From contig CAYTDO010000003.1 in assembly GCA_964436645.1 (NCBI GenBank), forward strand, positions 939 to 64,938: a stretch of 64,000 nucleotides of DNA, given 5' to 3'. Below the pieces are notes generated by a model that was not told where the DNA came from, did no database searches, and worked only from the letters and a program-made list of their open reading frames with translations. The first letter of the stretch is position 1; each line of letters starts with the position of its first letter. A program made the position numbers and the translations under genes. This DNA comes from an uncultured Methanosarcinales archaeon (GTDB lineage: Archaea > Nanobdellota > Nanobdellia > Woesearchaeales > GW2011-AR4). Shown here one piece after another: positions 39,565 through 64,000 of this stretch.

Positions 39565-39669
39565 AATTTTGCTGGATTAGAATTTTCTTTATATAGGTTA
39601 TGTTGCAATGATAACATATAGTATATTATTCCATAGTAACAGCTATATTCACCGTAGAAATCCTTATTT

Positions 39670-51238: not shown

Positions 51239-52120
51239 TTATTTCTTAAACTCGTACATAGGCTCTGAATCAAAATTCCAGAGCTCTTTCCAGCTGGATT
51301 CTATTGATAAAAAATCTATTTCTTTGCATTTGTGAATTATCGCGCTCTTAATTTGCTCAGATATAATCAGCTTCCCGATATTTTTTATTTTAGTATTTCT
51401 GCCTGAAGCAAGCACATAGTAAGTGCCATTGTATATCACTCCAAATCCAGCTGCCTCAACATTGCTGCCAATACTAACGCTTACAAAATCCGCCATTTCT
51501 TTGATTAACGCAATATTAGCAGCTTTTTTCATACTGCTGGCAAATTGCTTATCCCTAAAATTTGACTCTTTGCCAAACATAGCTTTATTCATGGCTATAA
51601 GCCTGTCAAAAACCTGCAATTTATTTTTTTCAATTGAATAATTTAATTCTTTCAGCTTCTTAAGGTCATAGTTCAGGTTTTTCCTGTGTTTTTTGTTAAA
51701 AAATTTCAAATAATTATCAAAGCTATTACCATATTTTTGCAGATTAAGAAAATATCTTTTATCTCCAAGCTCAAAATCATAGTATTTTGCTTCCTCCGAG
51801 GATATATAATAAATCTGAGTATCTTTAGGGCAGTTCTCAAAAAAAAGCTCAGCATTTTTTTTATCTTCAATCAAAAGCTTGTTCTGCTCAGGAAAATCAT
51901 CGCCAAAATAGGTAAAACTTCCATCGGACTTAGAGGAAACTAAAGGTAAAACCCCTATGGGCTTTCCATTCTCAGCCCCTAAAATAAAATTAAGCTTAAA
52001 ATCCTTAGTATGGAAGCATGATCTGAACTCCCATAAATCCCAAAGAGTCCGATTCTCACTGTATTTTTCCCAAATAGCTTTGCACTTGCTCTCTTCGGTA
52101 ATAACTTTAAACTTGGCCAT
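51239..52120 (-). CDS. FemAB/CelD-like GNAT-fold acyltransferase (hypothetical)
   Basis: 293 aa with a layout similar to BioF2/FemAB-family N-acyltransferases. Weak assignment. Confidence 0.4.
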   Translation of the reverse strand: MAKFKVITEESKCKAIWEKYSENRTLWDLWEFRSCFHTKDFKLNFILGAENGKPIGVLPLVSSKSDGSFTYFGDDFPEQNKLLIEDKKNAELFFENCPKDTQIYYISSEEAKYYDFELGDKRYFLNLQKYGNSFDNYLKFFNKKHRKNLNYDLKKLKELNYSIEKNKLQVFDRLIAMNKAMFGKESNFRDKQFASSMKKAANIALIKEMADFVSVSIGSNVEAAGFGVIYNGTYYVLASGRNTKIKNIGKLIISEQIKSAIIHKCKEIDFLSIESSWKELWNFDSEPMYEFKK

Positions 52121-52614: not shown

Positions 52615-54123
52615 ATGCCTAAAGATACTGCTAAGGAAGAGAAGGAAGCAATCAAAACCCAGCACGACAAAGGTAAATTGACGGCTAGGGAAAGAATAGC
52701 TCTTTTGCTGGACAAAGGGAACTTCGTAGAGCTTGATGCCGGGGTAGAGTTGAGGAGTACTAATTTCGGATTGCAGGAAAAAAAGAAGCCCGGAGATGGA
52801 GTAATAACCGGCTTTGGAAAGATAAATGACAGGCCAGTATGCATTTTTGCCCAGGATTTTATATTCATGGGCGGCTCGATGGGAGAGATGCACAACAAAA
52901 AGATATCGGCCATCCAGGAGCATGCCTTGAAGATAGGATGCCCAATAATAGGAATATTTGATTCAGGGGGGGCTAGAATCCAGGAAGGCATTAATTCTCT
53001 TGATGCCGGCGGCTTAATTTTCAAAAACAACACTTTAGCTTCCGGAGCAATACCGCAGATTTCCATTATTCTAGGGCCATGCGCTGGAATTGCTGTTTAT
53101 TCTCCAGCGTTGACTGATTTTATTTTCATGACCAAGAAGATAAGCTACATGTTTATTACCGGCCCTAATGTTATAAAGACAATTACCGGGGAGAATATTG
53201 ATTTCGACGGTTTAGGTGGGCCAATTGCTCATTCTGAAAAAAGCGGAGTGGCGCATTTTATAAGCGAAGACGAGAAAGACTGTTTTGAGACAGTAAAACT
53301 GCTCCTAAGCTACCTTCCGCAAAACAATTTAGAAAATTCTCCTTATATGTCTGTGCAGGATAATGCTGAAAGGCAGAATACAAAATTAAAAAATATAATT
53401 CCAAAAGAAGACAAGAAGAGCTATGACGTCAATGATGTAATTAATGAGGTTGTGGACAAAAATACATTTTTAGAGGTGCAGCCGTTATACGCGCAGAATG
53501 CAGTCACTGGGTTGGCAAGATTAAATGGGCTATCTATTGGCATAGTTGCAAACCAGCCAAAGATTCTTGCTGGATGCCTGGACATAAACAGCTCTGATAA
53601 GATTGCAAGATTTGTAAGGCTATGTGATGCATTTAATATTCCTATTATCAATTTTGTGGACGTAACAGGATATTTGCCTGGAGTCAGCCAGGAGCATAAT
53701 GGAATAATAAGGCATGGGGCAAAAATACTTTATGCTTATTCGGAAGCAGTTGTCCCTAAGATCAGCCTTATCATGAGGAAGGCTTATGGCGGCGCTTATA
53801 TTGCTTTGGCATCCAAGCAGATGGGATATGACAAGGTCATAGCATGGCCTAATTCTGAGATTGCGGTAATGGGGGCGGAGCAGGCTGTAAATATTATTTA
53901 TAAAAAAGATATTGATGCTGACAAGAGCGGGAAAGTAAAGAAGGAAAAAATAGCTGAATATTCTGAAAAATTCCTAAATCCGGACGAGGCCGTAAAACAT
54001 GGCCAAGTCGATTTAATTATCGAGCCAAAGGACACCAGGAAGATACTAATCCGGTGCCTTGAGATGATTATTACCAAGAGAGAAAGAAGGCCGGCAAAAA
54101 AACATGGCAATATTCCGTTATAA
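52615..54123 (+). CDS. acyl-CoA carboxylase carboxyltransferase subunit (PccB / methylmalonyl-CoA carboxyltransferase family)
   Basis: 502-aa product with N- and C-terminal crotonase-fold CT domains and motifs matching propionyl-CoA carboxylase beta. Confidence 0.9.
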   Translation: MPKDTAKEEKEAIKTQHDKGKLTARERIALLLDKGNFVELDAGVELRSTNFGLQEKKKPGDGVITGFGKINDRPVCIFAQDFIFMGGSMGEMHNKKISAIQEHALKIGCPIIGIFDSGGARIQEGINSLDAGGLIFKNNTLASGAIPQISIILGPCAGIAVYSPALTDFIFMTKKISYMFITGPNVIKTITGENIDFDGLGGPIAHSEKSGVAHFISEDEKDCFETVKLLLSYLPQNNLENSPYMSVQDNAERQNTKLKNIIPKEDKKSYDVNDVINEVVDKNTFLEVQPLYAQNAVTGLARLNGLSIGIVANQPKILAGCLDINSSDKIARFVRLCDAFNIPIINFVDVTGYLPGVSQEHNGIIRHGAKILYAYSEAVVPKISLIMRKAYGGAYIALASKQMGYDKVIAWPNSEIAVMGAEQAVNIIYKKDIDADKSGKVKKEKIAEYSEKFLNPDEAVKHGQVDLIIEPKDTRKILIRCLEMIITKRERRPAKKHGNIPL

Positions 54124-54237
54124 AAATTGATGAATAAATCGCGAGGCGAGATTAGTGGCAAGACAATTTCGCCAAGCACTATATGTTGCCGCGAAGCGAC
54201 ATATTGAAGTTTAGAATTACTAAAATTTTTACTCCAA

Positions 54238-54627
54238 ATGGAAGATCTAACCATCAAAGTTGACGGCAAGGAATATAGCGTTAAGGTAGAGGAGACTGAA
54301 GATGGCAAGCTTCTGGTGCACTGCAATGGCGATGTCTATGAGGTTGAAACTCCATATAATAAGCAGGCGGCAATCTTCAGCAGGGCAAAGAGACAGGACA
54401 TAGAAGAAACCGGGAAATCTGCCATCACTGCTCCCTTGCCAGGTACAATATTCGAGGTCAAGATTAAGAAAGGGGATAAAGTCAAAGAAGGGGATTCCTT
54501 AATCAAACTTATTGCGATGAAAATGGAGAATGACATCACTGCCAAAAAATCCGGAGTGGTGCAGGAAGTAAGGGTCAAGAAGAATGATACTGTCAATAAG
54601 GATGATATTTTGGCCATTATAGAATAA
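54238..54627 (+). CDS. biotin carboxyl carrier protein (biotin-requiring domain)
   Basis: C-terminal LIKLIAMKMENDI contains the biotinyl-lysine AMKM motif. Confidence 0.85.
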   Translation: MEDLTIKVDGKEYSVKVEETEDGKLLVHCNGDVYEVETPYNKQAAIFSRAKRQDIEETGKSAITAPLPGTIFEVKIKKGDKVKEGDSLIKLIAMKMENDITAKKSGVVQEVRVKKNDTVNKDDILAIIE

Positions 54628-54809
54628 AAGGAGCATTATTAAGAAAACAGTAAATATAAATTCAATTAAAAATAATAAGAACCAATAGAAAAAAAATCAA
54701 TAACTAATGGAATATAATAAAATTAATATCATAACAATAAAAACACTTAAAATAAAATTTAAAAAATAAATTTAATTGAAAATTGACAAAATGAAGCGGA
54801 GGTAATCTC

Positions 54810-55388
54810 ATGGCGAAGAAAAAAACAGAGACTGGCGATAGAAAAAAACAGCAATCAAATCTGAAACTTTTGGTCTTCTCGGCTTTGTTTGCCGCTTTGA
54901 CGGCTGCAATAGCGCCTTTCAAGATACCTCTTTGGTTTACACCTGTTCCAATTACTTTGCAAACTTTAGCTGTCCTGATGTCTGGAGCAATGCTCGGGCC
55001 TTATTATGGAGCCCTGGCAATGATACTCTATGTTGTTGTCGGAGCATTGGGCCTTCCTGTGTTTGCTGGAGGGGGTTCTGGAATAGGAGCTCTTCTTGGG
55101 CCAACTGGCGGATATCTGATAAGCTATTTCATAGCAGCATTTGTAATTGGAAAAGTTGTGCAGATGAGAAAAGAGCCTAAGTATGTTGATTATGTTGTTG
55201 CAATGGTAGCTGGAACGCTTATAATCTATTTGCTTGGCGCTGGGTGGGCAATGGTTGTGCTTCCAGAGCTGACTTTAACAGCAGTCCTTATAGGATGGGT
55301 GCTTCCGTTCATAATTGGAGATACAATAAAGCTGCTCATAGCTGCGCATATAGCAAATACTGTCAAATTAAAGCAGTATTTGAGATAA
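54810..55388 (+). CDS. bioY: biotin transporter BioY (ECF S component)
   Basis: 192 aa, six TM helices, with BioY-like motifs PVPITLQTLAVLMSG and GGYLISYF. Confidence 0.8.
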   Translation: MAKKKTETGDRKKQQSNLKLLVFSALFAALTAAIAPFKIPLWFTPVPITLQTLAVLMSGAMLGPYYGALAMILYVVVGALGLPVFAGGGSGIGALLGPTGGYLISYFIAAFVIGKVVQMRKEPKYVDYVVAMVAGTLIIYLLGAGWAMVVLPELTLTAVLIGWVLPFIIGDTIKLLIAAHIANTVKLKQYLR

Positions 55389-55406
55389 ATCCTTTTTTGA
55401 GGGAAA

Positions 55407-56279
55407 ATGAGTTCTGCAAAGATTGAGCTATTGGATATTTTCTCATATAGCTGCATGAACTGCTTGAGGTCTTTAGAGTATATTAAAAAACTCGATAAAA
55501 GATATGGAAAATTTGGATTAGCTACTATATTAGTCCATGTTCCTGAATGGGAATTTGAGAAGAATAAGTCCAATATACAAAAAGCAATAAAAAAATACAA
55601 AATAAAATTCCCAAAAATAATCGATAAAGACAGAAAATTGCTGGGGAGAATGAAGATTAATTTTTGGCCTGCGCAAATATTGCTAAAAGATGCTCGAACG
55701 GAAATTCGAACAGAGTTCGGCGTCCACTACATGGAGTTCGGCACCAACTACGTTGATGGTAAGGAAGTTTACAGGCATGTTGGGGAGGGCAACTATAAAT
55801 TATTAGAGAATAAGATAAGAACTGAACTTGGAATAAATAAAATTAGCAAATTATTGTTTAAAACTGAGCCAAAGTATTCAAAGCATCCTACAATATATGC
55901 CGGCAGCAGAAAAAATGGAAAGGTCTCGGGATCATATGATGCAGAAGACATGAAGTATGGAACTATTTACGCTAACGGGTCTTTTTTGCAAAAAAAGGAA
56001 TATTTGGAAAGTATTGGCAAAGGATCAATAAAAATAAAAACGAGATGCAAAATAATCAATATTGTTGCAGAATCGTTAACAAAAAAATCAATAATGATTA
56101 AAATATCTTCCAATAAAAGAAAAAAAAAAGGAAAAAATCATAAAAAAATCAATACAAAAGTTATCAGAATATGCAATCCGAGACTATATACACTTAATCA
56201 ATCAAAAAAAACTAATCCGCAAATTTTAGAGATTGAAACTAATAAAGGATTGGCAGTTTATTCATTTTCATTTCAATAA
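55407..56279 (+). CDS. thioredoxin-fold (redoxin/TlpA-like) protein with a Lys-rich low-complexity C-terminal half
   Basis: SYSCMNC (CxxC), FPKIIDKDRKLLGRMKINFWPAQILL (redoxin-like with cis-Pro), then a K/N-rich tail. Confidence 0.45.
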   Translation: MSSAKIELLDIFSYSCMNCLRSLEYIKKLDKRYGKFGLATILVHVPEWEFEKNKSNIQKAIKKYKIKFPKIIDKDRKLLGRMKINFWPAQILLKDARTEIRTEFGVHYMEFGTNYVDGKEVYRHVGEGNYKLLENKIRTELGINKISKLLFKTEPKYSKHPTIYAGSRKNGKVSGSYDAEDMKYGTIYANGSFLQKKEYLESIGKGSIKIKTRCKIINIVAESLTKKSIMIKISSNKRKKKGKNHKKINTKVIRICNPRLYTLNQSKKTNPQILEIETNKGLAVYSFSFQ

Positions 56280-56315
56280 ATAATTTCAATCATAAAATAT
56301 CAAATTTAAAAAACA

Positions 56316-57014
56316 ATGATAGAAGCAAAAAATCTCCATTTCCAGTATGAGGGAGAAGCAGTATTGCAAAAAATAAGCCTAAGCATAAGGGAAGGGAGCT
56401 ATACTGCTATTATAGGGGCCAATGGCTCGGGAAAGACTACTCTTGCAAAGCATTTCAATGCCTTGCTTACACCAACGAAAGGCGCCGTTTTTGTCGATAA
56501 TATTGACACAAAAAAAGATCCTTTTGCAGTCAGGAAAAAGGTTGGTTTTGTGTTCCAGAATCCAGAGGACCAGTTGGTTTATTCTATTGTAGAGGAAGAT
56601 ATTGCTTTCGGGCTGGAAAACATTGGCATGGAAACAAAAGCAATGAAGGAGAAAGTAAATTTTATCCTTAAAGAATTAGGGATAGGGCATCTTGCAAAGA
56701 AGAATGTCAATGCGCTTTCAATGGGGCAGAAGCAGCTTACCGCTCTTGCAGGTGTATTGGTTATGAGCCCAAAATATATAGTTTTTGATGAGCCAACTAC
56801 AATGCTGGACAGCCGCAATAAAAATAATATTATGTCGATAATAAATCACATAAATAAAAAAAATAATATTGGGATAATAATGGCCACTAATGTGCTTGAT
56901 GATACAAAATATGCAGAGAATGTGGTTGCATTAAAGAATGGAAAAATAATATTCAATGATAAAAAATCTAAATTAAATCGAAAAGTTATCAAGGGGGCTG
57001 GTTTGGATGCTTAA
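56316..57014 (+). CDS. ecfA: ECF transporter ATP-binding protein (EcfA/CbiO)
   Basis: Walker A GANGSGKTTL, signature LSMGQKQ, Walker B IVFDEPTTMLD. Confidence 0.85.
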   Translation: MIEAKNLHFQYEGEAVLQKISLSIREGSYTAIIGANGSGKTTLAKHFNALLTPTKGAVFVDNIDTKKDPFAVRKKVGFVFQNPEDQLVYSIVEEDIAFGLENIGMETKAMKEKVNFILKELGIGHLAKKNVNALSMGQKQLTALAGVLVMSPKYIVFDEPTTMLDSRNKNNIMSIINHINKKNNIGIIMATNVLDDTKYAENVVALKNGKIIFNDKKSKLNRKVIKGAGLDA

Positions 57015-57729
57015 GAGGCTTAGCTTCGGCCAATATACGCATAAGGATTCTTTAATCCATAAATTGGACCCCCGGATAAAGGTACTAGCGGTTGTTATTT
57101 TAAGCGCATCGGCATTTTTGATAAAATCTTACTACAATATGTCCATGCTTTCCTTTCTTGTTTTGCTGCTTGTGCTCATTGCAAAAATCAATTTTTCTTC
57201 CTTGATAATAAATCTAAGGCCTTTATCCCCGATAATGATATTTATCCTTATAATGTATCTTTTATTCTCGCCAAACCAATTAGATAAGGGTATATTATCC
57301 ATATGGAGGTTTTTATTGTTCGTCGCTATAGCGCTTATACTTACTTTTACCACAACAATTAATTCAATGGTCACTGGAATAGAAAAAATGATTGTGCCAT
57401 TGAAATTTTTTAGAGTAAATCCAAGGACATTTGCATTGCTTATTTCACTGACAATACGATTTATTCCTTCGTTTTTTCTTTACGCAGAGCGTATTAGAGA
57501 TGCAAGATTAGCCAGGTTAGGCAGCCTGAAGAAGGCAAAGCATATCAAATTGCTGTTTATCCAGTTGCTTGACAGAATTTTCAAAAGCGCATCAACTATG
57601 AGCGATGCCATGGTTGCAAGGAGCTATACTGCTGAAAGAAAATCTTATTTCAATAAAATACATTTAAGGGCTAATGATTATATCTCTCTTTTTGTTTTAA
57701 TGGCTGCAGTATTGATTATATTAATTTAA
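57007..57729 (+). CDS. ecfT: ECF transporter transmembrane component (EcfT/CbiQ)
   Basis: 240 aa, about 5 TM helices. The position after ecfA and an Arg-rich coupling helix region (ERIRDARLARLG) fit EcfT. Confidence 0.7.
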   Translation: MLKRLSFGQYTHKDSLIHKLDPRIKVLAVVILSASAFLIKSYYNMSMLSFLVLLLVLIAKINFSSLIINLRPLSPIMIFILIMYLLFSPNQLDKGILSIWRFLLFVAIALILTFTTTINSMVTGIEKMIVPLKFFRVNPRTFALLISLTIRFIPSFFLYAERIRDARLARLGSLKKAKHIKLLFIQLLDRIFKSASTMSDAMVARSYTAERKSYFNKIHLRANDYISLFVLMAAVLIILI

Positions 57730-57851
57730 TGAGTGTATTGATTAATTGATCCAATTTATTTAGCTAAAATTGATTTTATTGGATTATTTAGCCTACTTAA
57801 TTGATTTAATAAGTTAGGATTGTTTTTAGAACTGGCTGCTTAGTTGGTTAT

Positions 57852-58088
57852 TTACTGCCTTGGTGATTTCTGTCCGAATAATATTCCTGTCAGAACGTTA
57901 AGGGCCCATGCCTGCCAGACATTTATGGAATGCATGCTTCCAAAGACAAAGTTCCACAGCAATTTTACCGGGAATGCGAGGACTAGGCCTACAATGCCGC
58001 TTATCAGTATAACTAATAGAAGAGTGTAGCTCATCTCGAGCATCCTTTTCAAAAACGGCACATCATTCAAAAAGCCCATAGTTGTCAA
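57852..58088 (-). CDS. small hypothetical membrane protein (78 aa)
   Basis: One clear TM helix. Overlapped by an alternative plus-strand ORF, so uncertain. Confidence 0.25.
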   Translation of the reverse strand: MTTMGFLNDVPFLKRMLEMSYTLLLVILISGIVGLVLAFPVKLLWNFVFGSMHSINVWQAWALNVLTGILFGQKSPRQ

Positions 58089-58161
58089 TTCTATAGAAAA
58101 AGCAGCCCTTTTTAAAGATTTTGATGAAAAGTTTATAAATTACAGCCAGCTAAAAATCCAA

Positions 58162-58569
58162 ATGAGGGCCAATAGAACTGAGCAGAGGGTTTATTATTCT
58201 GATACTGACCATGTCGGAGTTGTTTATTACGCCAATTACCTTAAGTGGTTTGAAATAGGCAGGACAGAGATTCTTAGGGAAAATAAGCTTGATTATGATG
58301 AGTTCGAAAGGCAGGGATTAATAGCTCCTGTTGTTGAGGTAAAATGCACATTTAAGGATCCTGCGAAATATAATGACCGGATAATCATAGAAACCAAAGT
58401 CGAGCATGTTGGAAACAGCAGCATAAAGTTTGTTTATGGCATAATAAGAAAAAATGACAAGAAATTGCTGGCAGAAGGCTATACTGTAAATGTATTTGTA
58501 GGCATGAAGACTGGAAAGCCTGCAAGAATACCTGAGAGATTGAGGAAGATTTTTTATGGCAAGAATTAA
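58162..58569 (+). CDS. acyl-CoA thioesterase (YbgC/4HBT hot-dog family)
   Basis: YYSDTDHVGVVYYANYLKWFEIGRTE is the canonical 4HBT/YbgC N-terminal motif with catalytic Asp. Confidence 0.85.
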   Translation: MRANRTEQRVYYSDTDHVGVVYYANYLKWFEIGRTEILRENKLDYDEFERQGLIAPVVEVKCTFKDPAKYNDRIIIETKVEHVGNSSIKFVYGIIRKNDKKLLAEGYTVNVFVGMKTGKPARIPERLRKIFYGKN

Positions 58570-59285
58570 ACAACAAAAATGTCCGCTTCTGTTATTTTCT
58601 TGGTTTTTCCATTTTTTAATTTTAGTATGAGATTGCAGCCATCATCTACGTCTATTGCTTTGCCGACAAAATCTCCATTGAGGGTTTTTGCCTTTATATC
58701 TTTTCCAAGAGTATGCGAGGATTTTTTCCATAATGATATTATTTTTTTGTAGCTTTTAGATTCATAGCATTTGTATAATGATGAGAAGTTTTTAATGATG
58801 GATTTTGACATATTCTCTATGCTGAATGTTTTTTTTGATTCCAGTTTCAATGATGTAGCTTTGTTTTTTATAGAATTTGAAAACTTATCTATGTTTACGT
58901 TAACACCTATCCCAACCAAGGCGTAATTCTCTTTGCCGTGTATGGTTTCGGTCAATATCCCGCAAACTTTTTTATCGCTTATCAAAACATCGTTTGGCCA
59001 TTTTACCCTTGCATTTAACTGCGATATAGTTTTTATGGATTTTGCGACTGCAATCGAGGCAATAAGCGTAAGGTATTTTATCCTAGCTGGATGCTCTTCT
59101 TTTAAAATTATCGTCATGTAAAGACCGCCTAATTCCGAGTTCCATTTCCTTCCAAACCTGCCTTTGCCCCCTTCCTGCTTTTTTGCAGTTATTACCAAAT
59201 TATAGATGCCTTGGCCTGCAAATTCTTTTGCCTTGTCATTGGTTGATGAAATAGTTTCAAAATTGCAGAATTCAAAATTTAGCAT
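58566..59285 (-). CDS. birA: biotin--protein ligase (BirA catalytic domain, no HTH)
   Basis: GGKGRFGRKW matches the GRGRxGRxW biotin-binding loop. KWPNDVLI. Confidence 0.85.
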   Translation of the reverse strand: MLNFEFCNFETISSTNDKAKEFAGQGIYNLVITAKKQEGGKGRFGRKWNSELGGLYMTIILKEEHPARIKYLTLIASIAVAKSIKTISQLNARVKWPNDVLISDKKVCGILTETIHGKENYALVGIGVNVNIDKFSNSIKNKATSLKLESKKTFSIENMSKSIIKNFSSLYKCYESKSYKKIISLWKKSSHTLGKDIKAKTLNGDFVGKAIDVDDGCNLILKLKNGKTKKITEADIFVV

Positions 59286-61182
59286 TTAGCTCTTGCTCCA
59301 TCAAATCACGACGTCCTGCCATTGTCCACTGAGAATTAGATTGGACAAATTTTTTCTTCTCAAGATATCTGGATACTGATGTTGTTACAATTATAAGCCT
59401 TTGCTCCTTTGTAAGCTCCTTCTTCTGACCATAATAATTCTTGACTTCCTTGAGAATTTCATTTTTCTCTATAAAAGATGTTGTGACTCTTCCCCTAATA
59501 AAATTTGTATTGTTAAGGGCAGCAAGATGGAAGGGTATTGTGGTGCTAATCCCCTGGATTTTGTATTCCTTCAATGCTCCAATCATTCTTGCCAAAGCCT
59601 CTTGCCTAGTTTTGCCGTGGCATATCAGCAAGGCCAATAAGGAATCATAATGCGGCAGAACTTTATAGCCCTGATGGCAGATGCTGTTCAGCCTTATACC
59701 TGGGCCGCCAGGAGGAAGGTAGTTAGTTATTGTTCCTATCGAAGGGGTAAAGTCTCCCAACGGGTCTTCTGCATTTATCCTGCATTCAATTGCGCAGCCA
59801 TTCATCTTTATGTCTTCCTGGGTAAATGCCATTTTAGCCCCTGCTGCAATCTTTATCTGCTCCTTTACTAAGTCAACGCCAGTCACCATTTCTGTTACAC
59901 CGTGCTCTACCTGGATTCTTGTGTTAACTTCAATGAAATAGAAGTTTTTGTTTTTATCCAATAAGAATTCAACAGTCCCGGCGCCTTCATAATTTGCAGC
60001 GGAAATTACTTTTACAGCGGCATTGCCCATCTTTTCCCTTAACTCATCACTTAAAGCAGGGCTTGGGCTTTCCTCTATAAGCTTCTGGTGCTTCCTCTGT
60101 ACACTGCAATCTCTTTCTCCAAGATGGATTACGTTGCCATATTGATCTGCTAAAATCTGGAATTCTATATGTCTGGGATTCTCAATATATTTTTCCATGT
60201 ACAATGTCTTGTCCTTGAAAGAAAGCATTGCCTCAGCTTCCGCGCTTTCATAGAATTTTTCGACATCTTCTTCCTTCCTTACGATCCTCATCCCCTTCCC
60301 GCCGCCGCCGGCAGCAGCTTTAATGATAACAGGGAATCCTATAGTTTTTGCAAGCTTAAGGGCATGGCGCTTGTTTTTGAGAGACTTTATCGTCCCAATG
60401 ATTATAGTGACTCCTGCCTTCAAAACTGTCTTTTTTGCTTTTACTTTGTTTCCCAAAAGCCCTATTGTCCTGGAAGAAGGCCCTATAAACTTAATATTGT
60501 TCTTGGTGCATAATTTCGCAAACTTGGCATTTTCAGCCAAAAAGCCATATCCCGGATGGATTGCATCTGCCTCAATCTTTTTAGCGATTTGTATTATTTT
60601 TTTAATGTCGAGGTAGCTTGAGCCTTGGCCAATATAGTAAGATTTGTCTGCAAGCTTTACAGCCAGATTATCTTTATCATGATTGGAATAAACTAAAGCT
60701 GTTTCGATTCCCAGCTCTCTGCATGCCCTTATCACCCTTAAGGCTATCTCACCCCTATTTGCAATCAGAACTTTCTTGAACTGTTTTTCTTTTGCCAGCA
60801 GGGTGTATTCTTTTTCTTCCCCAACACTAAGCCCTTTTGCAATCATATCAATAAAGCTTTTTGAGGATTTGCTTTCAACTATTTTCTTCAACTCTTTATG
60901 GTCAACATGAGAAAACTTTCCAAGAAGCCTTGAGGTTATTGCCTCTCCGATATGCGCCAAGTGCTTTTTTTTGAAAGATGGATTATGCTTTCCAATCTGG
61001 ACTACATTGCTTTTGATAAAATGATCAATCTCTTGGTAGACTAAAGGAGCTGATTTTTGAACATGCTTTGCGGCTTTTTTCAAGGCCCTATAGGAATAAA
61101 CTACAGGGGTTAAGCTTTTGTTTAGGGCGGCTGCTAGGGTTTTTTTTAGTTTAAAGCGTATTCCTGATTCATTTACTGCCAT
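59272..61182 (-). CDS. biotin carboxylase (AccC/PycA-like) with an unusual ~112-aa basic N-terminal extension. An alternative start lies at 60846.
   Basis: KKVLIANRGEIALRVIRACRELGI..., an ATP-grasp core, and the C-terminal biotin-carboxylase domain. The conserved region begins at residue ~130 of the longest ORF. Confidence 0.85.
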   Translation of the reverse strand: MAVNESGIRFKLKKTLAAALNKSLTPVVYSYRALKKAAKHVQKSAPLVYQEIDHFIKSNVVQIGKHNPSFKKKHLAHIGEAITSRLLGKFSHVDHKELKKIVESKSSKSFIDMIAKGLSVGEEKEYTLLAKEKQFKKVLIANRGEIALRVIRACRELGIETALVYSNHDKDNLAVKLADKSYYIGQGSSYLDIKKIIQIAKKIEADAIHPGYGFLAENAKFAKLCTKNNIKFIGPSSRTIGLLGNKVKAKKTVLKAGVTIIIGTIKSLKNKRHALKLAKTIGFPVIIKAAAGGGGKGMRIVRKEEDVEKFYESAEAEAMLSFKDKTLYMEKYIENPRHIEFQILADQYGNVIHLGERDCSVQRKHQKLIEESPSPALSDELREKMGNAAVKVISAANYEGAGTVEFLLDKNKNFYFIEVNTRIQVEHGVTEMVTGVDLVKEQIKIAAGAKMAFTQEDIKMNGCAIECRINAEDPLGDFTPSIGTITNYLPPGGPGIRLNSICHQGYKVLPHYDSLLALLICHGKTRQEALARMIGALKEYKIQGISTTIPFHLAALNNTNFIRGRVTTSFIEKNEILKEVKNYYGQKKELTKEQRLIIVTTSVSRYLEKKKFVQSNSQWTMAGRRDLMEQELNAKF

Positions 61183-61250
61183 AGACTAAAGCATAGTTTT
61201 TTGTTTTATAAACGTTTCTACCAATTGGTTACGCGCGATTGATACGCAAT

Positions 61251-61320
61251 GAGGGGCATAAAGCCCCTCGCCGCAGCTTTCTTGCTGCTTGATAGCTGCG
61301 GTGTATGGCTTACAGCCATA
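61251..61320 (+). other. three tandem GC-rich stem-loops followed by a T-run (candidate small RNA, terminator or leader)
   Basis: Stem-loops gaggggc-ataaa-gcccctc, ccgcagct-(16 nt)-agctgcgg and gtatggct-taca-gccatac, then catccTTTTTT. Lies in the divergent spacer between the biotin carboxylase and fabZ-like genes. Confidence 0.35.
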
Positions 61321-61406
61321 CATCCTTTTTTGGCTCTTAGTGATTCAATTTTAGCCCTAAGATTCCAAGACGAAACCTTTTTAAACGACTTAGCATTAGA
61401 CGAGAC

Positions 61407-61904
61407 ATGCAGGAAATAGACAATTTCAAGGATAAAAACGGGGGCATTTCAAGGGAAAATATAAAGAAAATCATTCCTTATGACGACCCTTTTTTGCTTA
61501 TTGACCATATTTCAGGCTTATCAAAGAAGAAGGTAGTTGCGACAAAGGAAGTCAAAGCAGATGAATATTATCTTAAGGGGCATTTCAAGGATTTTCCAAT
61601 CATGCCAGGGGCTTTGATTGTTGAAGGGCTTGGCCAGGCAGCAACTTTGCTTATCCGATATAATATCCCTAATCATTGGGAAAAGGATGTTTTGGCATAT
61701 AAGATTAGAGGAGCTAAGTTTTTCAGGCCTGCATTTCCTGGGCATACTTTAACTTTTAAGGCTAAGCTCATATTAATGTTCAAAAAAATCGCTTTTGTGA
61801 ACGGAGAGGTTTTCAGGAATGAAAAGCTTGTTTCGAAAGTGAAGATGGTCTTGGCAATTGTTGATAAAAAGCAATTCCGCGAAAGATACAGCGGGAAAAT
61901 ATAA
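61407..61904 (+). CDS. FabZ-like 3-hydroxyacyl-thioester dehydratase (hot-dog fold)
   Basis: LLIDHI...YYLKGHFKDFPIMPGALIVEGLGQAA matches the FabZ/FabA active-site His and motif. Confidence 0.75.
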   Translation: MQEIDNFKDKNGGISRENIKKIIPYDDPFLLIDHISGLSKKKVVATKEVKADEYYLKGHFKDFPIMPGALIVEGLGQAATLLIRYNIPNHWEKDVLAYKIRGAKFFRPAFPGHTLTFKAKLILMFKKIAFVNGEVFRNEKLVSKVKMVLAIVDKKQFRERYSGKI

Positions 61905-61928
61905 TTTTAAGGTTCTATCGAGGGAAAA

Positions 61929-63056
61929 ATGTATATCAAAGGAGTAGGAATGACGAAATTCGGTGTGCATGCTGAAACCAGCCAGGAGATGTGCTATGAG
62001 GCTATTTCCGAGGCTCTTGAAGATGCAGATATGCCATTGGAAGAGATAGATGAAATCATAATAGCTAAAGGAGATTCCTCTGTTGATGGGGAAAGGCAAA
62101 GGCTTTTTTCAGCGGTTTTGAGCAGCATGCTGCAGGACAGGGGAATTCCAATCATCAGAGTTGTTGCTGCATGCAGCGGCGGAGGGGCTGCTGTATGGAA
62201 TGCTGTCAACTCAGAAGCTAGAAATATTTTGGCAGTTGGAGTTGAAAAGCTAACACCGCCTCCAACGAGGTTTGTAACTGATGACCTTATGATGGCCTCA
62301 GAGAGGATTTATGAGCAGACAGAAGGGATGAATTTTCCGGCGCAGAATGCGTTGATTGCGCAGCAATATATGATGAAATATAATGTTTCTCCTAAAGACC
62401 TATCTCTTGTTGCATTGAAAAATCATGAGAATGCTTTCAATAATCCTAAGGCGCGTTTTTTTGGAAAAAAAGTAACTTTGGATATGATAAATAAATCTCC
62501 CATTGTTGCTTCTCCCTTGAGGCTTTTTGACTGCAGCATATCTGTTGATGGGGCTGCAGCTGCGATAATAAGCAAGGATAAAACTGATATTGAGATTGCA
62601 GGGTCTTCATTGTACGCAGATAGATTGCCTGCTTTCGAAGCCAAGGATATGACATCATGGAATGGCAGCGTACTTGCTTCAAAAGATGCTTATGCTCAAG
62701 CCGGGATTAGTGCGAAAGATGTTGATTTTGCCGAGCTGCATGATGCCTTTACCTCAGTGGAATTGATGGCTTATGAAGATCTAGGATTTGCAGAAAAAGG
62801 AAAGGGCAAGGATTTGATTAGAAAAGGAAAGACAAGCATGAATGGTGAGCTTCCTGTGAATACCTCTGGCGGATTGAAAGCCAAAGGGCACCCTATCAGC
62901 GCTACCGGAATATCTCAAATTTATGAGATAGCAAGGCAGATGAGGAAGCAGGCTGATAAAAGACAGTTAGACAGGACGAAGATAGGATTAGCGCATAATG
63001 TAGGCGGAGTAGGAAGCACAGTTACTGTGCATATATTAAAATGTATAGGTGGTTAA
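61929..63056 (+). CDS. archaeal-type thiolase (acetyl-CoA C-acetyltransferase, SCP-x-like)
   Basis: 375 aa with N-terminal YIKGVGMTKFG and an active-site Cys region (VVAACSGGGAAV), typical of archaeal thiolases that pair with DUF35 proteins. Confidence 0.85.
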   Translation: MYIKGVGMTKFGVHAETSQEMCYEAISEALEDADMPLEEIDEIIIAKGDSSVDGERQRLFSAVLSSMLQDRGIPIIRVVAACSGGGAAVWNAVNSEARNILAVGVEKLTPPPTRFVTDDLMMASERIYEQTEGMNFPAQNALIAQQYMMKYNVSPKDLSLVALKNHENAFNNPKARFFGKKVTLDMINKSPIVASPLRLFDCSISVDGAAAAIISKDKTDIEIAGSSLYADRLPAFEAKDMTSWNGSVLASKDAYAQAGISAKDVDFAELHDAFTSVELMAYEDLGFAEKGKGKDLIRKGKTSMNGELPVNTSGGLKAKGHPISATGISQIYEIARQMRKQADKRQLDRTKIGLAHNVGGVGSTVTVHILKCIGG

Positions 63057-63058
63057 AA

Positions 63059-64000
63059 ATGATAATAAGATGGGTTTCTGAAGACGGAAAGAGAAAGTGG
63101 ATGTATCCAGTAAAGCAGGATTTGCATACTAAAGGCAGAGTAATCAAACAGGTAAGCAGGAAAGCTAAAATAATTGGAATCACCAAAGTGAATATACCCT
63201 CTCCATTGCATCCAATAGTTCCTTACAATATTCTATTGCTTGAAGATGAGTATGGAAATAGAATGCCTAAAAAAACTATGAAAGAGTACAGGATAGGGGG
63301 AACTTATGAAGTTATGCCGGCAAAGACGGATGGAGCTGTTGTTGTTACGAAAATAAAATATGATCTTTTGGAGTATCTTAAAGAATCTTTACGGCTGGTC
63401 CATGAGTATAATATAAGTGCTGAGGATAAAATTCTGATAAAGCCGAGCATAATTGAGCCTGCTTACGGCTACCAGGCTGTCAATACAAACCCCCAGATCC
63501 TTGATGCGCTTTTGGAGATACTTAAGGATAAAGGAGTAACGGATATTGTTGTTGCTGAGCAATCGATGCTTGGGAATGATACTATTGAAAGCGCAAAGAA
63601 ATCAGAGCTATTGGATGTGTGCAAGAAAAATGCTGTGAAGTTTGTTGATTTATCCAAATCTGAATTTGTTTCGAAGGAATTTGATGGGTTTAATTTTAAA
63701 ATTGCGAAAGAATTGTTTGAGAGGAAGGTTATTAATTTACCAGTCATGAAGACGAATTCCCAGATTGGAATTTCAGGCGCAATTGAAAATATGTTAAGGG
63801 TTGCGGATGCGGAAACCCAGAAAAGAATGTTTTCAGAGGATATAGAAAAAACACTGCCTAAGTTGCTTAAGGTCCTGCCTGAGTTTTTGACAATAGGAGA
63901 TGCTACTATCGGAATGCAGGCGCAAGGGCCTACATCATTAGGAGAGCCAGCTTTCCTGAATATGGTTTTTGTCAGCAGGGATGCCGTCGCTTTGGATGCT
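63059..64000 (+). CDS. DUF35-type OB-fold protein (thiolase partner) continuing without a stop into a DUF362-like domain. Partial: runs off the window end.
   Basis: Hand translation from the ATG at 63059 is open to position 64000. The N-terminal part (GRVIKQVSRKAKIIGITKVNIPSPLHPIVPYNILLLEDEYGNRMPKKTMKEYRIGGTYEV) matches the DUF35 OB-fold but has no Zn ribbon. Downstream, KILIKPSIIEPAYGYQAVNTNPQILDALLEILKDKGVTDIVVAE resembles DUF362. Confidence 0.5.
   Translation, partial: MIIRWVSEDGKRKWMYPVKQDLHTKGRVIKQVSRKAKIIGITKVNIPSPLHPIVPYNILLLEDEYGNRMPKKTMKEYRIGGTYEVMPAKTDGAVVVTKIKYDLLEYLKESLRLVHEYNISAEDKILIKPSIIEPAYGYQAVNTNPQILDALLEILKDKGVTDIVVAEQSMLGNDTIESAKKSELLDVCKKNAVKFVDLSKSEFVSKEFDGFNFKIAKELFERKVINLPVMKTNSQIGISGAIENMLRVADAETQKRMFSEDIEKTLPKLLKVLPEFLTIGDATIGMQAQGPTSLGEPAFLNMVFVSRDAVALDA

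What the first reader, a model, noticed from the sequence alone, without database searches (positions are those of the whole stretch)
52615..64000. Biotin-dependent acyl-CoA carboxylase genes clustered with biotin import/ligation and a FabZ-thioesterase-thiolase-DUF35 set in an archaeon
A contiguous 11-kb block encodes carboxyltransferase (PccB-like), BCCP, BioY-EcfA-EcfT biotin import, BirA, biotin carboxylase, an acyl-CoA thioesterase, a FabZ-like dehydratase, an archaeal thiolase and its DUF35 partner. Acyl-CoA carboxylases and thiolase-DUF35 pairs are each established in archaea. The tight co-localisation of carboxylation (malonyl-CoA or methylmalonyl-CoA supply), dehydration, thioester hydrolysis and Claisen condensation reads like a compact ACP-independent fatty-acid-like or polyketide-like module. 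Such a module has been proposed for archaea, but it is rarely seen as one locus. No ACP, KAS III or FabG/FabI gene is visible in the window.
Basis: partly seen in the sequence, partly recalled or inferred. Interest (0 to 1): 0.7.

Follow-up and report, generated by a model that had tools for sequence, protein, structure and literature searches.

The report
Fatty-acid synthesis gene island in DPANN archaeon
The block is the front part of a gene island conserved across Woesearchaeota (tiny DPANN archaea) that joins a biotin-dependent acyl-CoA carboxylase to thiolase-, FabZ- and FabG-type chain-building enzymes and, in relatives, to bacterial-style glycerol-3-phosphate acyltransferases, so these archaea probably make fatty-acid lipids without an acyl carrier protein.

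Summary
A thioredoxin-like gene sits inside the biotin transporter operon. A conserved 75-aa membrane protein gene was missed. The "DUF35 partner" is the N-terminal domain of a 489-aa fusion with a LarA-like DUF362 domain. The window is from a Woesearchaeota (DPANN) archaeon.

In 62 related loci the neighbourhood is conserved well beyond chance:
- Upstream of the fusion gene: a thiolase directly upstream in 52/52 loci, FabZ in 44/45, biotin carboxylase in 31/42.
- Downstream: a second thiolase in 34/34, FabG in 32/32, PlsC-type acyltransferases in 23/26, GpsA in 19/26.

The gene after the fusion is a second thiolase, not HMG-CoA synthase. Some relatives have a separate HMGCS–thiolase–DUF35 trio a few kb further on. 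The carboxyltransferase comes with an ATP-grasp biotin carboxylase, and no membrane pump subunit was seen. No ACP-like ORF occurs in the window or in any locus.

The best reading is an ACP-independent, CoA-based fatty-acid synthase feeding glycerol-3-phosphate ester lipids. It is a new variant of the archaeal thiolase/DUF35 system. Direction of flux, malonyl-CoA use, the enoyl reductase and the role of DUF362 are all inferred, not shown.

The parts
52615..54123 (+). Carboxyltransferase subunit of an acyl-CoA carboxylase (PccB/AccD5-like, 502 aa).
   Evidence: PF01039, 608 bits. The best solved relatives are PCC/ACC beta subunits 1VRG, 1XNW and 7W5U. The residue after GGAY is Ile, as in 7W5U (named acetyl-CoA carboxylase) and 1VRG. 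Found upstream of the thiolase operon in 26/38 loci.
54238..54627 (+). Biotin carboxyl carrier protein (129 aa).
   Evidence: PF00364, 69.7 bits. The AMKM biotinylation motif is visible in the translation.
54810..55388 (+). BioY, the biotin-specific S component of an ECF/BioMNY transporter.
   Evidence: PF02632, 144.5 bits.
55407..56279 (+). Thioredoxin-like protein with a CxxC motif (CMNC) embedded in the transporter operon. Its role is unknown.
   Evidence: PF17991 Thioredoxin_10, 43.8 bits. Found at the same position in at least 10 loci and in L067.
56316..57014 (+). Single ABC ATPase of the transporter (BioM/EcfA-like).
   Evidence: PF00005, 109 bits.
57007..57729 (+). T component of the transporter (BioN/EcfT, CbiQ family).
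   Evidence: PF02361, 82.7 bits.
57852..58079 (-). Conserved 75-aa protein with two predicted TM helices. Function unknown; it is not an ACP.
   Evidence: Translation. Orthologues found in 13 of the 23 loci examined. No Pfam hit.
58162..58569 (+). YbgC/FadM-family acyl-CoA thioesterase (hot-dog fold, 135 aa).
   Evidence: TIGR00051, 95.4 bits against a cut-off of 68.7. PF13279, 82.9 bits. Present in 16/38 loci.
58566..59285 (-). Biotin-protein ligase BirA (239 aa, ligase only, no repressor domain).
   Evidence: TIGR00121, 191 bits against a cut-off of 83. Present in 31/38 loci.
59272..61182 (-). Biotin carboxylase (636 aa) with a lineage-specific N-terminal extension of about 134 aa.
   Evidence: TIGR00514, 641.7 bits against a cut-off of 626.5, matched over residues 135-576. 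The extension is present and alignable in 37/37 cluster-linked orthologues.
61183..61406 (.). 224-bp divergent intergenic region between BC (-) and FabZ (+). Presumed shared promoter region.
   Evidence: Read from the coordinates. Not analysed further.
61407..61904 (+). FabZ-like (3R)-hydroxyacyl dehydratase (165 aa).
   Evidence: PF07977, 63.9 bits. The catalytic His and Glu of the GHF..PxMPG..xxE motif align with FabZ 8AYD. Found within 2 kb upstream of the fusion gene in 44/45 loci.
61929..63056 (+). Thiolase 1 (archaeal/SCP2 type, 375 aa).
   Evidence: NF004720, 366 bits. Best solved relatives are 7YVY and the 6ESQ thiolase. The nucleophilic Cys, HDAF, GHP and NVGG motifs are kept. Directly upstream of the fusion gene in 52/52 loci.
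63059..64000 (+). First 314 codons of a 489-aa DUF35::DUF362 (LarA-like) fusion protein. The ORF runs off the window.

Best explanation
The block is the upstream part of a roughly 20-25-kb lipid island that is conserved in Woesearchaeota (DPANN archaea). I read it as an ACP-independent, CoA-thioester-based fatty-acid synthase with its own biotin supply.

Proposed steps:
1. BioY, BioM and BioN import biotin, and BirA loads it onto BCCP.
2. BC, BCCP and the PccB-like CT carboxylate acetyl-CoA (or another short acyl-CoA) to malonyl-CoA.
3. Two paralogous thiolases (the one in the window, and a second just past the window end) are held by the DUF35 domain of the fusion protein and do the Claisen condensations.
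4. FabG (just downstream in relatives) reduces the 3-ketoacyl-CoA.
5. The FabZ-like enzyme dehydrates it.
6. An enoyl reductase that differs between clades finishes the cycle: acyl-CoA dehydrogenase with EtfAB in one clade, an MDR enzyme in another. It is unidentified for the window's clade and could be the LarA-like DUF362 domain.
7. Acyl-CoA is then either hydrolysed by the YbgC-type thioesterase or handed to two PlsC-type acyltransferases, which acylate glycerol-3-phosphate made by GpsA.

Shown by the tools: the gene identities, the catalytic motifs, the folds of the fusion protein, the conserved synteny, and the absence of an ACP-like ORF from the sequence examined.

Inferred: the biosynthetic direction, use of malonyl-CoA by the thiolases, the physical complex, chain length, and the lipid product.
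For: The organism is an archaeon of the Woesearchaeota:
- The same contig carries an archaeal CCA-adding enzyme, TYW1, archaeal PEPC, RadB and DUF460.
- All named homologues and loci are Woesearchaeota or Nanoarchaeota.

Synteny across 62 loci, with the fusion protein at 37-67% identity to the window's:
- Thiolase directly upstream of the fusion gene: 52/52.
- FabZ: 44/45.
- BC within 4.5 kb: 31/42.
- CT and BCCP: 26/38.
- Second thiolase downstream: 34/34.
- SDR: 32/32.
- PlsC-type acyltransferase: 23/26.
- GpsA: 19/26.

Enzyme identities and motifs:
- The SDR is a FabG equivalog (TIGR01830, 312-313 bits against a cut-off of 297.75).
- GpsA scores NF000942 399 bits against 257, and both PlsC-type proteins carry HX4D and PEG(T/K)RS motifs.
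- FabZ keeps its catalytic His and Glu.
- About 90 thiolase sequences keep the Cys, the HDxF His and the GHP His.
- The thioesterase belongs to the acyl-CoA (YbgC/FadM) family.
- The CT specificity position is Ile, as in the chain named acetyl-CoA carboxylase, 7W5U.

Other support:
- No ACP-like ORF in the window or in the 62 loci.
- The fusion protein has a DUF35 fold that matches known thiolase-scaffolding proteins.
- Lipid-related extras appear in the cluster in some clades: fatty-acid desaturase, patatin, VorB-type OFOR, and an acyl-CoA dehydrogenase with EtfAB closest to the AcrC (clostridial acryloyl-CoA reductase) model.
- Precedent: the Sulfolobus KT/DUF35 + SDR + dehydratase fatty-acid synthase complex (bioRxiv 10.1101/2024.07.05.601840).
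Against: - No experiment exists for any of these proteins.
- Thiolases normally use acetyl-CoA, not malonyl-CoA, so the need for a carboxylase is unexplained unless these thiolases condense decarboxylatively. The only hint is that both paralogues have HDAF where SCP2-type thiolases have the acid/base Cys in HDCF. That hint is weak: a paper on archaeal thiolase complexes writes the archaeal motif as HDxF (PMC12960953), and the solved chain 7YVY, named acetyl-CoA acetyltransferase, also has HDAF.
- No enoyl reductase is identifiable in the window's own clade.
- FabG, the second thiolase, GpsA and PlsC lie beyond the window end. They are inferred from relatives, the closest being 83% and 79% identical (L069, L067).
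- The same enzyme set (thiolase, 3-hydroxyacyl dehydrogenase-type SDR, dehydratase, ACAD/ETF, thioesterase, CoA-transferase) could run a fermentative or degradative pathway.
- ACP, AcpS or KAS genes could sit elsewhere in these genomes. Only about 20 kb per genome was examined.
- The carboxylase is missing from the neighbourhood in about a quarter of loci (11/42).
Confidence: 0.6

Rival explanations
1. The cluster runs reverse beta-oxidation-type fermentation. Acetyl-CoA or branched acyl-CoA made by 2-oxoacid:ferredoxin oxidoreductase is condensed, reduced, dehydrated and reduced again to short or medium-chain acyl-CoA. This is released as acid by the thioesterase or a CoA-transferase, for redox balance and energy conservation rather than for lipids.
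For: One clade carries VorB-type OFOR plus an acyl-CoA dehydrogenase closest to the AcrC model with EtfAB inside the cluster. A family III CoA-transferase occurs in 6 loci. A thioesterase is present. Woesearchaeota are described as fermenters (PMC10936187).
Against: An ATP-consuming carboxylase with a dedicated biotin importer and ligase is conserved next to the cluster (31/42), and fermentation has no use for it. FabG and FabZ are family types named for biosynthesis. GpsA, two HX4D acyltransferases, a desaturase and a patatin-like lipase co-localise. ACAD/Etf and OFOR were found in only 5 of the 23 loci whose ORFs were clustered.
Confidence: 0.12
2. The carboxylase and the two thiolases mainly supply acetoacetyl-CoA to the mevalonate pathway for isoprenoid lipids, by analogy with the malonyl-CoA-dependent NphT7 route. 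The HMGCS-associated thiolase has lost its activity.
For: HMGCS, a third thiolase and (where checked, in L034 and L067) a standalone DUF35 lie 3-5 kb downstream in L067, L034, L047, L055 and L063. In 4 of those 5 loci the third thiolase has Asp where the nucleophilic Cys aligns, so another enzyme must make the acetoacetyl-CoA.
Against: FabZ, FabG, GpsA, PlsC and the desaturase have no role in mevalonate synthesis. HMGCS is absent from the 10 kb downstream in most loci. This reading can coexist with the best explanation rather than replace it.
Confidence: 0.1
3. The carboxylase operon is functionally separate, for example propionyl-CoA carboxylation or anaplerosis. It is a neighbour of the thiolase-FabZ operon only through genome compaction or shared regulation.
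For: The CT scores best against the mmdA and PccB models. The carboxylase is absent from the neighbourhood in 11/42 loci. Thiolases do not need malonyl-CoA.
Against: The adjacency, with BC and FabZ transcribed divergently, persists down to 37-50% identity of the fusion protein. No methylmalonyl-CoA mutase or epimerase was seen in any locus. The CT specificity position is Ile, as in a chain named acetyl-CoA carboxylase, not the Asp that I recall for propionyl-specific PccB (for the Ile; the Asp rests on my own knowledge).
Confidence: 0.08
4. The cluster degrades scavenged fatty acids by beta-oxidation.
For: It contains thiolases, a crotonase in some loci, ACAD/ETF in one clade and a patatin-like lipase.
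Against: No acyl-CoA synthetase appeared among the recurrent cluster genes. The cluster has a carboxylase, GpsA and acyltransferases. Its dehydratase and reductase are FabZ/FabG types rather than FadB type.
Confidence: 0.05

Closest known systems
Sulfolobus acidocaldarius archaeal fatty-acid synthase: ketothiolase/DUF35 (Saci_1121/1120) + SDR ketoacyl-CoA reductase + MaoC dehydratase, with a separate MDR enoyl-CoA reductase (bioRxiv 10.1101/2024.07.05.601840)
   Same: CoA-based with no ACP. Condensation is by an archaeal-type thiolase paired with a DUF35-fold protein that scaffolds the following enzymes. An SDR reductase and a hot-dog-fold dehydratase follow.
   Different: - Here there are two thiolase paralogues flanking the DUF35 gene.
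- DUF35 is fused to a LarA-like DUF362 domain, and in the window protein it has lost its zinc-ribbon cysteines.
- The dehydratase is FabZ-type and the reductase is a FabG equivalog, both bacterial FAS II types, instead of MaoC and a different SDR.
- An acyl-CoA carboxylase with its biotin importer and ligase is part of the island.
- GpsA and PlsC-type acyltransferases follow.
- The MDR reductase is absent, except in L067.
Archaeal thiolase/HMG-CoA synthase/DUF35 complex of the mevalonate pathway (Methanothermococcus thermolithotrophicus, PDB 6ESQ/6ET9)
   Different: No HMGCS sits next to this thiolase pair. Some relatives carry a separate HMGCS–thiolase–DUF35 trio. The motif is HDAF instead of HDCF. 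DUF35 is fused to DUF362.
Bacterial type II fatty-acid synthesis (AccABCD, FabD, FabH/F, FabG, FabZ, FabI, ACP) with GpsA/PlsC phospholipid assembly
   Same: FabZ- and FabG-family enzymes, a biotin-dependent carboxylase, NAD(P)H-dependent G3P dehydrogenase and HX4D acyltransferases.
   Different: No ACP, FabD or KAS gene in the window or in the 62 loci. Thiolases stand where the condensing enzymes would be. The carboxylase is the three-subunit PccB-type rather than AccA/AccD. The thioesterase is of the acyl-CoA type.
LarA superfamily (nickel-pincer-nucleotide 2-hydroxyacid racemases; Pfam DUF2088, clan CL0471 together with DUF362)
   Different: Only 11-14% identity, and no sequence-level hit to any solved structure. 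Cofactor-binding residues were not assessed. No LarB/C/E genes were seen in the window. No DUF362 protein has a known function.
DUF35 fusions that dock thiolase-fold enzymes: ChsH2/Shy hydratase-DUF35 with Ltp2/Sal aldolase, BbsA-BbsB, PhlB-PhlC
   Different: The fusion partner here (DUF362) and the pathway context (carboxylase, FabZ, FabG, lipid genes) have not been described for those systems.

Membership tests
Biotin-dependent acyl-CoA carboxylase (three-subunit BC/BCCP/CT type) | Carboxyltransferase domain of the PccB/AccD5 type | tested here: met
   PF01039, 608 bits. E 1e-187 to 1VRG.
Biotin-dependent acyl-CoA carboxylase (three-subunit BC/BCCP/CT type) | ATP-grasp biotin carboxylase with all three BC domains | tested here: met
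   PF00289, PF02786 and PF02785 all hit. TIGR00514, 641.7 bits against a cut-off of 626.5.
Biotin-dependent acyl-CoA carboxylase (three-subunit BC/BCCP/CT type) | BCCP with a biotinyl-lysine (A/E)MKM motif, and a biotin ligase | tested here: met
   AMKM is present in the translation. PF00364 hits. BirA scores TIGR00121 191 bits against 83.
Biotin-dependent acyl-CoA carboxylase (three-subunit BC/BCCP/CT type) | Substrate (acetyl- versus propionyl-CoA) and carboxylation activity | not testable with these tools
   The only hint is Ile after GGAY, as in 7W5U and 1VRG. The rule that Asp at this position means propionyl-specific and Ile means broad specificity rests on my own knowledge of S. coelicolor PccB/AccB.
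Na+-translocating methylmalonyl-CoA/oxaloacetate decarboxylase | Membrane beta subunit (OadB/MmdB) present and no biotin carboxylase subunit | tested here: not met
   BC is present and adjacent. No OadB/MmdB family hit in any of the 47 window ORFs scanned. The CT score to TIGR01117 mmdA, 756 bits, is below its cut-off of 999.
Archaeal thiolase/DUF35 pair | SCP2/archaeal-type thiolase with nucleophilic Cys, HDxF and GHx motifs | tested here: met
   AAC, HDAF, GHP and NVGG motifs are present in the window protein and in about 90 orthologues and paralogues.
Archaeal thiolase/DUF35 pair | Adjacent protein with a zinc-ribbon plus OB-fold (DUF35, PF01796/PF12172) | tested here: inconclusive
Archaeal thiolase/DUF35 pair | Physical complex of thiolase and DUF35 | not testable with these tools
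   Needs co-purification.
Mevalonate entry complex (thiolase/HMGCS/DUF35) | HMG-CoA synthase encoded with the thiolase and DUF35 | tested here: not met
   The gene after the fusion is a second thiolase in 34/34 loci. HMGCS (NF003274, 490 bits) occurs only as a separate set in a few loci.
Bacterial type II FAS | Acyl carrier protein | tested here: not met
   The motif scan of all ORFs of 55-140 aa in the window and all loci held at that point (L001-L066) gave only four spurious antisense ORFs. The rest of each genome was not searched.
Bacterial type II FAS | Ketoacyl-ACP synthase (FabH/FabF/FabB) and FabD | tested here: not met
   None appeared among the recurrent cluster genes or in the precomputed Pfam lists for L001, L003, L067 and L069.
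Bacterial type II FAS | FabZ dehydratase with catalytic His and Glu | tested here: met
   PF07977 hits. The alignment to 8AYD keeps GHF..PxMPG and the Glu. NF000582 scores 96.8 bits, below its cut-off of 113, so this is a divergent member.
Bacterial type II FAS | FabG ketoreductase | tested here: met
   Not in the window. In relatives, TIGR01830 scores 312 and 313 bits against a cut-off of 297.75. Present downstream in 32/32 loci.
Sulfolobus-type archaeal FAS | MaoC dehydratase and MDR enoyl-CoA reductase | tested here: not met
   They are absent from the cluster except in L067, where MaoC and MDR follow the HMGCS trio. The window's MDR (466-1434) is only 31% identical to the L067 MDR and is quinone-reductase-like.
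LarA superfamily (for the DUF362 domain) | LarA-like two-lobed alpha/beta fold | tested here: met
LarA superfamily (for the DUF362 domain) | Nickel-pincer cofactor ligands and catalytic histidines; LarB/C/E cofactor synthesis genes | not tested
   No residue-level superposition was available. No sequence hit to solved LarA. No LarB/C/E families turned up in the window scans.
BioMNY-type ECF biotin transporter | BioY S component, one ATPase gene and one T component in a single operon | tested here: met
   PF02632, PF00005 and PF02361 hit in consecutive genes, interrupted by the thioredoxin-like gene.

The most novel reading that the evidence does not exclude
Woesearchaeota make bacterial-type glycerol-3-phosphate fatty-acyl ester lipids de novo, using a hybrid synthase. 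In it, a pair of thiolase-fold enzymes lacking the SCP2 acid/base cysteine condense malonyl-CoA decarboxylatively, with no ACP and no KAS. They are docked on a DUF35 domain whose fused LarA-like DUF362 module carries out a new catalytic step, such as enoyl reduction or hydride shuttling, possibly with a nickel-pincer-type cofactor. That would be a natural, lineage-wide crossing of the lipid divide in archaea, and the first function for DUF362.
Probability: 0.2. Interest if true: 0.92.

Novelty: new variant of a known kind. Interest (0 to 1): 0.74.

Why it matters
DPANN archaea are usually described as unable to make their own lipids, and archaea in general as lacking fatty-acid ester membranes.

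Individual FabG, FabZ, GpsA and PlsC genes have been noted in Woesearchaeota MAGs (PMC10936187, PMC6431249). I found no paper in the searched library that describes them as one conserved island, or that describes the DUF35::DUF362 fusion.

If the island works as read, it gives three things:
- A concrete set of about 15 genes to test for de novo fatty-acid and acyl-glycerol-3-phosphate lipid synthesis in an archaeal lineage, which bears on the "lipid divide" and on how membranes changed during early evolution.
- A second, differently built example of the ACP-independent thiolase/DUF35 fatty-acid synthase that was reconstituted only recently from Sulfolobus.
- The first functional context for DUF362, a widespread domain of unknown function related to nickel-pincer racemases.

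Tried and rejected
- **Window contig beyond position 64000.** Exact-sequence look-ups failed for the thiolase and for P0001. The look-up for FabZ P0270 gave only a 932-bp Logan contig. The window's genome is not among the GTDB species representatives. Downstream content is therefore inferred from relatives.
- **First impression that the carboxylase is not a conserved neighbour.** This came from L001 and L003 and was overturned by the 62-locus survey.
- **The 75-aa ORF as a possible ACP.** Rejected: it has two hydrophobic helices and no DSL-type motif.
- **HDAF as proof of decarboxylative condensation.** Downgraded: a paper on archaeal thiolase complexes gives the archaeal motif as HDxF, the solved chain 7YVY also has HDAF, and no paper on 7YVY was found.
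- **The window's MDR dehydrogenase (466-1434) as the missing enoyl reductase.** It is only 31% identical to the cluster-linked MDR of L067 and closest to NADPH:quinone reductase. Left open.
- **The methyltransferase as BioC or a cyclopropane synthase.** Only generic methyltransferase domains hit, with BioC at 43 bits against a cut-off of 185.
- **Homologues of the BC N-terminal extension.** None found by the word-index search.
- **Sequence-level match of the fusion protein to any solved structure.** None.
- **Clean Thl1/Thl2 split.** An NJ tree showed no clean reciprocal monophyly, so no claim is made about when the two paralogues duplicated.
- **Sodium-pump decarboxylase reading.** Rejected because BC is present and no membrane beta subunit was found.

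Full report
**1. What is in the sequence**

- CT, 52615-54123 +
- BCCP, 54238-54627 +
- BioY, 54810-55388 +
- a thioredoxin-like CxxC protein, 55407-56279 +
- ABC ATPase, 56316-57014 +
- CbiQ/EcfT, 57007-57729 +
- a 75-aa two-TM ORF, 57852-58079 -
- YbgC-type acyl-CoA thioesterase, 58162-58569 +
- BirA, 58566-59285 -
- biotin carboxylase, 59272-61182 -
- a 224-bp divergent intergenic region
- FabZ-like dehydratase, 61407-61904 +
- thiolase, 61929-63056 +
- an ORF starting at 63059 that runs off the window

The gaps FabZ–thiolase (24 nt) and thiolase–last ORF (2 nt), and the BirA/BC overlap, indicate operons. The thioredoxin-like gene interrupts the transporter. The small membrane ORF was missed. 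The last ORF has no Pfam DUF35 hit; residues 125-314 are DUF362.

**2. Whose genome**

The rest of the window carries archaeal markers: an archaeal CCA-adding enzyme, TYW1, archaeal-type PEP carboxylase, RadB and DUF460, together with gyrase A and a 5S rRNA. The last ORF is 100% identical to the start of a 489-aa protein, P0001, from a 71,963-bp NCBI contig. All named homologues are Candidatus Woesearchaeota or Nanoarchaeota, that is, DPANN. The same holds for the FabZ homologues.

**3. The fusion protein**

DUF362 and the LarA N-terminal family belong to one Pfam clan (PMC11770544). There is no sequence-level hit to any solved structure.

The DUF35 zinc-ribbon cysteines are kept, at least three of four, in 18 of 26 aligned relatives. 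They are all lost in the window protein and its nearest relatives.

Among 1.84 billion representative proteins, only 38 match at E ≤ 1e-30, and those listed mostly match from the N-terminus. Ordinary DUF362 proteins match only residues ~100-360. The fusion is therefore a small, lineage-restricted family.

**4. Synteny**

A scan of one genome per GTDB species with an alignment of the fusion protein returned 62 loci. All are Woesearchaeota or Nanoarchaeota MAGs, apart from a set labelled "uncultured Methanosarcinales" by their depositor (which I take to be a placeholder name) and one short contig binned as Nitrospinota. tblastn with the window proteins and with proteins from relatives gives this recurrent order:

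CT+ BCCP+ [BioY Trx ATPase EcfT]+ [75-aa ORF]- TE+ BirA- BC- | FabZ+ Thl1+ DUF35::DUF362+ [FabG+] Thl2+ [crotonase- Lpd-, or CoA-transferase+, or VorABG] methyltransferase+ FabG+ … GpsA, PlsC, PlsC.

Counts among loci with enough flank:

| Gene, relative to the fusion gene | Loci |
|---|---|
| Thiolase directly upstream | 52/52 |
| FabZ | 44/45 |
| BC within 4.5 kb | 31/42 |
| BirA | 31/38 |
| CT and BCCP | 26/38 |
| Thioesterase | 16/38 |
| Second thiolase downstream | 34/34 |
| SDR | 32/32 |
| Methyltransferase | 19/32 |
| PlsC-type acyltransferase | 23/26 |
| GpsA | 19/26 |

The two closest relatives with context have the same upstream genes as the window (apart from the transporter ATPase and T genes, absent from L069) and a second thiolase after the fusion gene. 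These are L069 at 83% identity and L067 at 79%. My first impression from L001 and L003, that the carboxylase is not a neighbour, was an artefact of looking at two exceptions.

**5. Identities of the extra genes**

- The SDRs are FabG equivalogs (TIGR01830, 312 and 313 bits against 297.75).
- GpsA is an NAD(P)H-dependent G3P dehydrogenase (NF000942, 399 bits against 257).
- Both acyltransferases carry HX4D and PEG(T/K)RS motifs.
- The flavoprotein next to Thl2 in the window's clade is a dihydrolipoyl dehydrogenase (TIGR01350, 572 bits against 409).
- One clade carries a VorB-type 2-oxoacid:ferredoxin oxidoreductase (NF005507, 544 bits against 399) between the fusion gene and Thl2. It also carries an acyl-CoA dehydrogenase, closest to the AcrC (clostridial acryloyl-CoA reductase) model, plus EtfB and EtfA between FabG and PlsC.
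- Single clades add a membrane fatty-acid desaturase, a patatin-like lipase, a family III CoA-transferase and a cytidylyltransferase-family protein.
- L067 has HMGCS–thiolase–DUF35–MaoC–MDR right after FabG. MaoC and MDR are the dehydratase and enoyl-reductase types of the Sulfolobus system.

**6.

HMG-CoA synthase (NF003274, 490 bits) exists in at least five loci. It is always a separate set, 3-5 kb beyond Thl2, with its own thiolase and, where checked (L034, L067), a standalone DUF35. It is never the neighbour of the fusion gene.

The CT is accompanied by a full biotin carboxylase, BCCP and BirA. No OadB/MmdB family appears in the window scans. Its mmdA score (756 bits) is below that model's cut-off (999). 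Its best solved relatives are carboxylase beta subunits. Neither refuting condition is met.

**7. Catalytic detail**

- FabZ keeps the His and Glu of the FabZ motif. Its best solved match is 8AYD, deposited as a FabZ.
- Both thiolase paralogues, in about 90 sequences, keep the nucleophilic Cys, the GHP His and NxGG. They invariably read HDAF where the M. thermolithotrophicus thiolase reads HDCF.
- In SCP2-type thiolases the HDCF cysteine is the acid/base, to my knowledge; PMC12329534 places a conserved Cys in that motif. Its absence would fit a decarboxylative, malonyl-CoA-driven condensation and would explain the attached carboxylase.
- This is weak evidence, because the archaeal motif is written HDxF (PMC12960953) and the solved 7YVY "acetyl-CoA acetyltransferase" is also HDAF.
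- The CT has Ile after GGAY, like 7W5U (named acetyl-CoA carboxylase) and 1VRG. To my knowledge, propionyl-specific PccB has Asp there.
- No ACP-like ORF exists in the window or in the 62 loci.
- The thioesterase is of the acyl-CoA family.

**8. Mechanism proposed**

1. Biotin is imported by BioY/M/N and attached by BirA.
2. Acetyl-CoA, or another short acyl-CoA, is carboxylated.
3. Condensation is done by the Thl1/Thl2 pair docked on DUF35.
4. FabG reduces and FabZ dehydrates.
5. Enoyl reduction differs by clade: ACAD with EtfAB, or MDR. It is unknown in the window's clade, where the DUF362 domain is a candidate.
6. Acyl-CoA goes to the two HX4D acyltransferases with G3P from GpsA, or is hydrolysed by the thioesterase.

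Identities, motifs, folds and synteny are shown by the tools. Direction of flux, substrates, complex formation and products are inferred. The precedent is the Sulfolobus ketothiolase/DUF35 + SDR + MaoC complex with an MDR reductase (bioRxiv 10.1101/2024.07.05.601840).

**9. Rivals**

- Reverse beta-oxidation-type fermentation fits the clade with Vor and ACAD/Etf, and the CoA-transferase. It does not explain the carboxylase, GpsA, the acyltransferases or the desaturase.
- Supplying acetoacetyl-CoA to the mevalonate pathway gains some support from a side observation. In 4 of 5 loci the HMGCS-associated thiolase has Asp at the nucleophile position. This rival does not explain FabZ, FabG or PlsC, and it is compatible with the main reading.
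- A functionally separate propionyl-CoA carboxylase, and beta-oxidation of scavenged lipids, are less likely for the reasons given in the rival entries.

**10. What is known and what is new**

Papers on Woesearchaeota MAGs mention FabG, FabI, FabZ and cyclopropane-fatty-acid genes (PMC10936187). An earlier survey notes GpsA in Woesearchaeota and PlsC in DPANN (PMC6431249). Other searches found nothing specific.

I found no description of the conserved island, of the carboxylase–thiolase linkage, or of the DUF35::DUF362 fusion. "DUF362" occurs in 14 papers in the library, and none gives it a function.

I therefore rate this a new variant of a known kind, the ACP-independent archaeal thiolase/DUF35 fatty-acid synthesis. 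It is built partly from bacterial-type FabZ and FabG, and it is coupled to a carboxylase and to G3P-lipid assembly genes.

**11. Limits**

- The window stops inside the fusion gene, so everything downstream is inferred from relatives.
- Only about 20 kb per genome was examined, so ACP or KAS genes elsewhere cannot be excluded.
- My ORF calls in the loci are mechanical.
- No activity has been measured for any protein of the island.

Noticed in passing
L067 16451-17602; L034 17562-18674; L055 14269-15519; L063 15679-16845; L047 4304-5410: The thiolase encoded next to HMG-CoA synthase (with a standalone DUF35 where that was checked, in L034 and L067) has Asp where the nucleophilic Cys of the 6ESQ thiolase aligns, in 4 of 5 Woesearchaeal loci. 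Only L047 keeps Cys. The 'mevalonate' thiolase may be catalytically dead, so acetoacetyl-CoA may come from the cluster thiolases.
   Followed up: partly
window 59272-61182 (-), codons 1-134: The biotin carboxylase has a ~125-145-aa N-terminal extension with conserved motifs (N..L.P, IT, SF..L..G, EK.YT.L) in all 37 cluster-linked orthologues. It has no Pfam hit, and the word-index search found no homologue.
   Followed up: partly
window 63059-63150 (+): All four zinc-ribbon cysteines of the DUF35 domain (C7, C10, C21, C24 in relatives) are replaced by S, G, D and T in the window protein and in 7 of its 25 aligned relatives. The OB fold is retained.
   Followed up: yes
window 55407-56279 (+): A thioredoxin-like protein with a CMNC motif and a Thioredoxin_10 C-terminal domain sits between BioY and the transporter ATPase. 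It holds that position in at least 10 related loci. Why a thiol-disulfide oxidoreductase belongs to a biotin importer operon is unexplained.
   Followed up: partly
window 57852-58079 (-): A conserved 75-aa protein with two hydrophobic helices lies between the transporter or BCCP and the thioesterase in 13 of the 23 loci examined. It has no family hit.
   Followed up: partly
L045 11317-13648 and 16712-19847; also L050, L053, L056, L057: One Woesearchaeal clade has a shorter fusion protein (~361 aa). It has inserted VorB-type 2-oxoacid:ferredoxin oxidoreductase genes after the fusion gene, and an acyl-CoA dehydrogenase (closest to the AcrC model) with EtfB and EtfA before the PlsC genes.
   Followed up: partly
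L067 15451-19366: The relative at 79% identity has HMGCS–thiolase–DUF35–MaoC dehydratase–MDR reductase directly after FabG. This puts Sulfolobus-type FAS parts next to the FabZ/FabG-type island.
   Followed up: no
L009 17435-18439; also a second locus, L041: A membrane fatty-acid desaturase (PF00487, 117 bits) lies between FabG and GpsA. Such enzymes need O2 as far as I know, which is unexpected for organisms described as anaerobic fermenters.
   Followed up: no
L009 12857-14278 (-); also L005, L010, L012, L029, L048, L067: A dihydrolipoyl dehydrogenase (TIGR01350, 572 bits in L009), sometimes with a crotonase, lies next to the second thiolase in the window's clade. No E1 or E2 gene is nearby.
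   Followed up: no
window 466-1434 (+): An MDR-family NADPH:quinone-reductase-like protein. It is only 31% identical to the cluster-linked MDR of L067, so it is an open candidate for the missing enoyl reductase.
   Followed up: partly
window 38092-40830 (-): An archaeal-type PEP carboxylase (PF14010, 614 bits) lies next to a class I/II aminotransferase. This is a second carboxylation route on the same contig.
   Followed up: no
window 50809-52120 (-): A 92-aa ORF and a 293-aa Acetyltransf_6 (GNAT-like) gene lie between RadB and the CT gene. They are absent from the relative at 83% identity, L069, where RadB abuts CT.
   Followed up: no
window 34896-35012 (-): A stand-alone 5S rRNA gene (80.8 bits). 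ARAGORN found no tRNA gene anywhere in the 64 kb.
   Followed up: no
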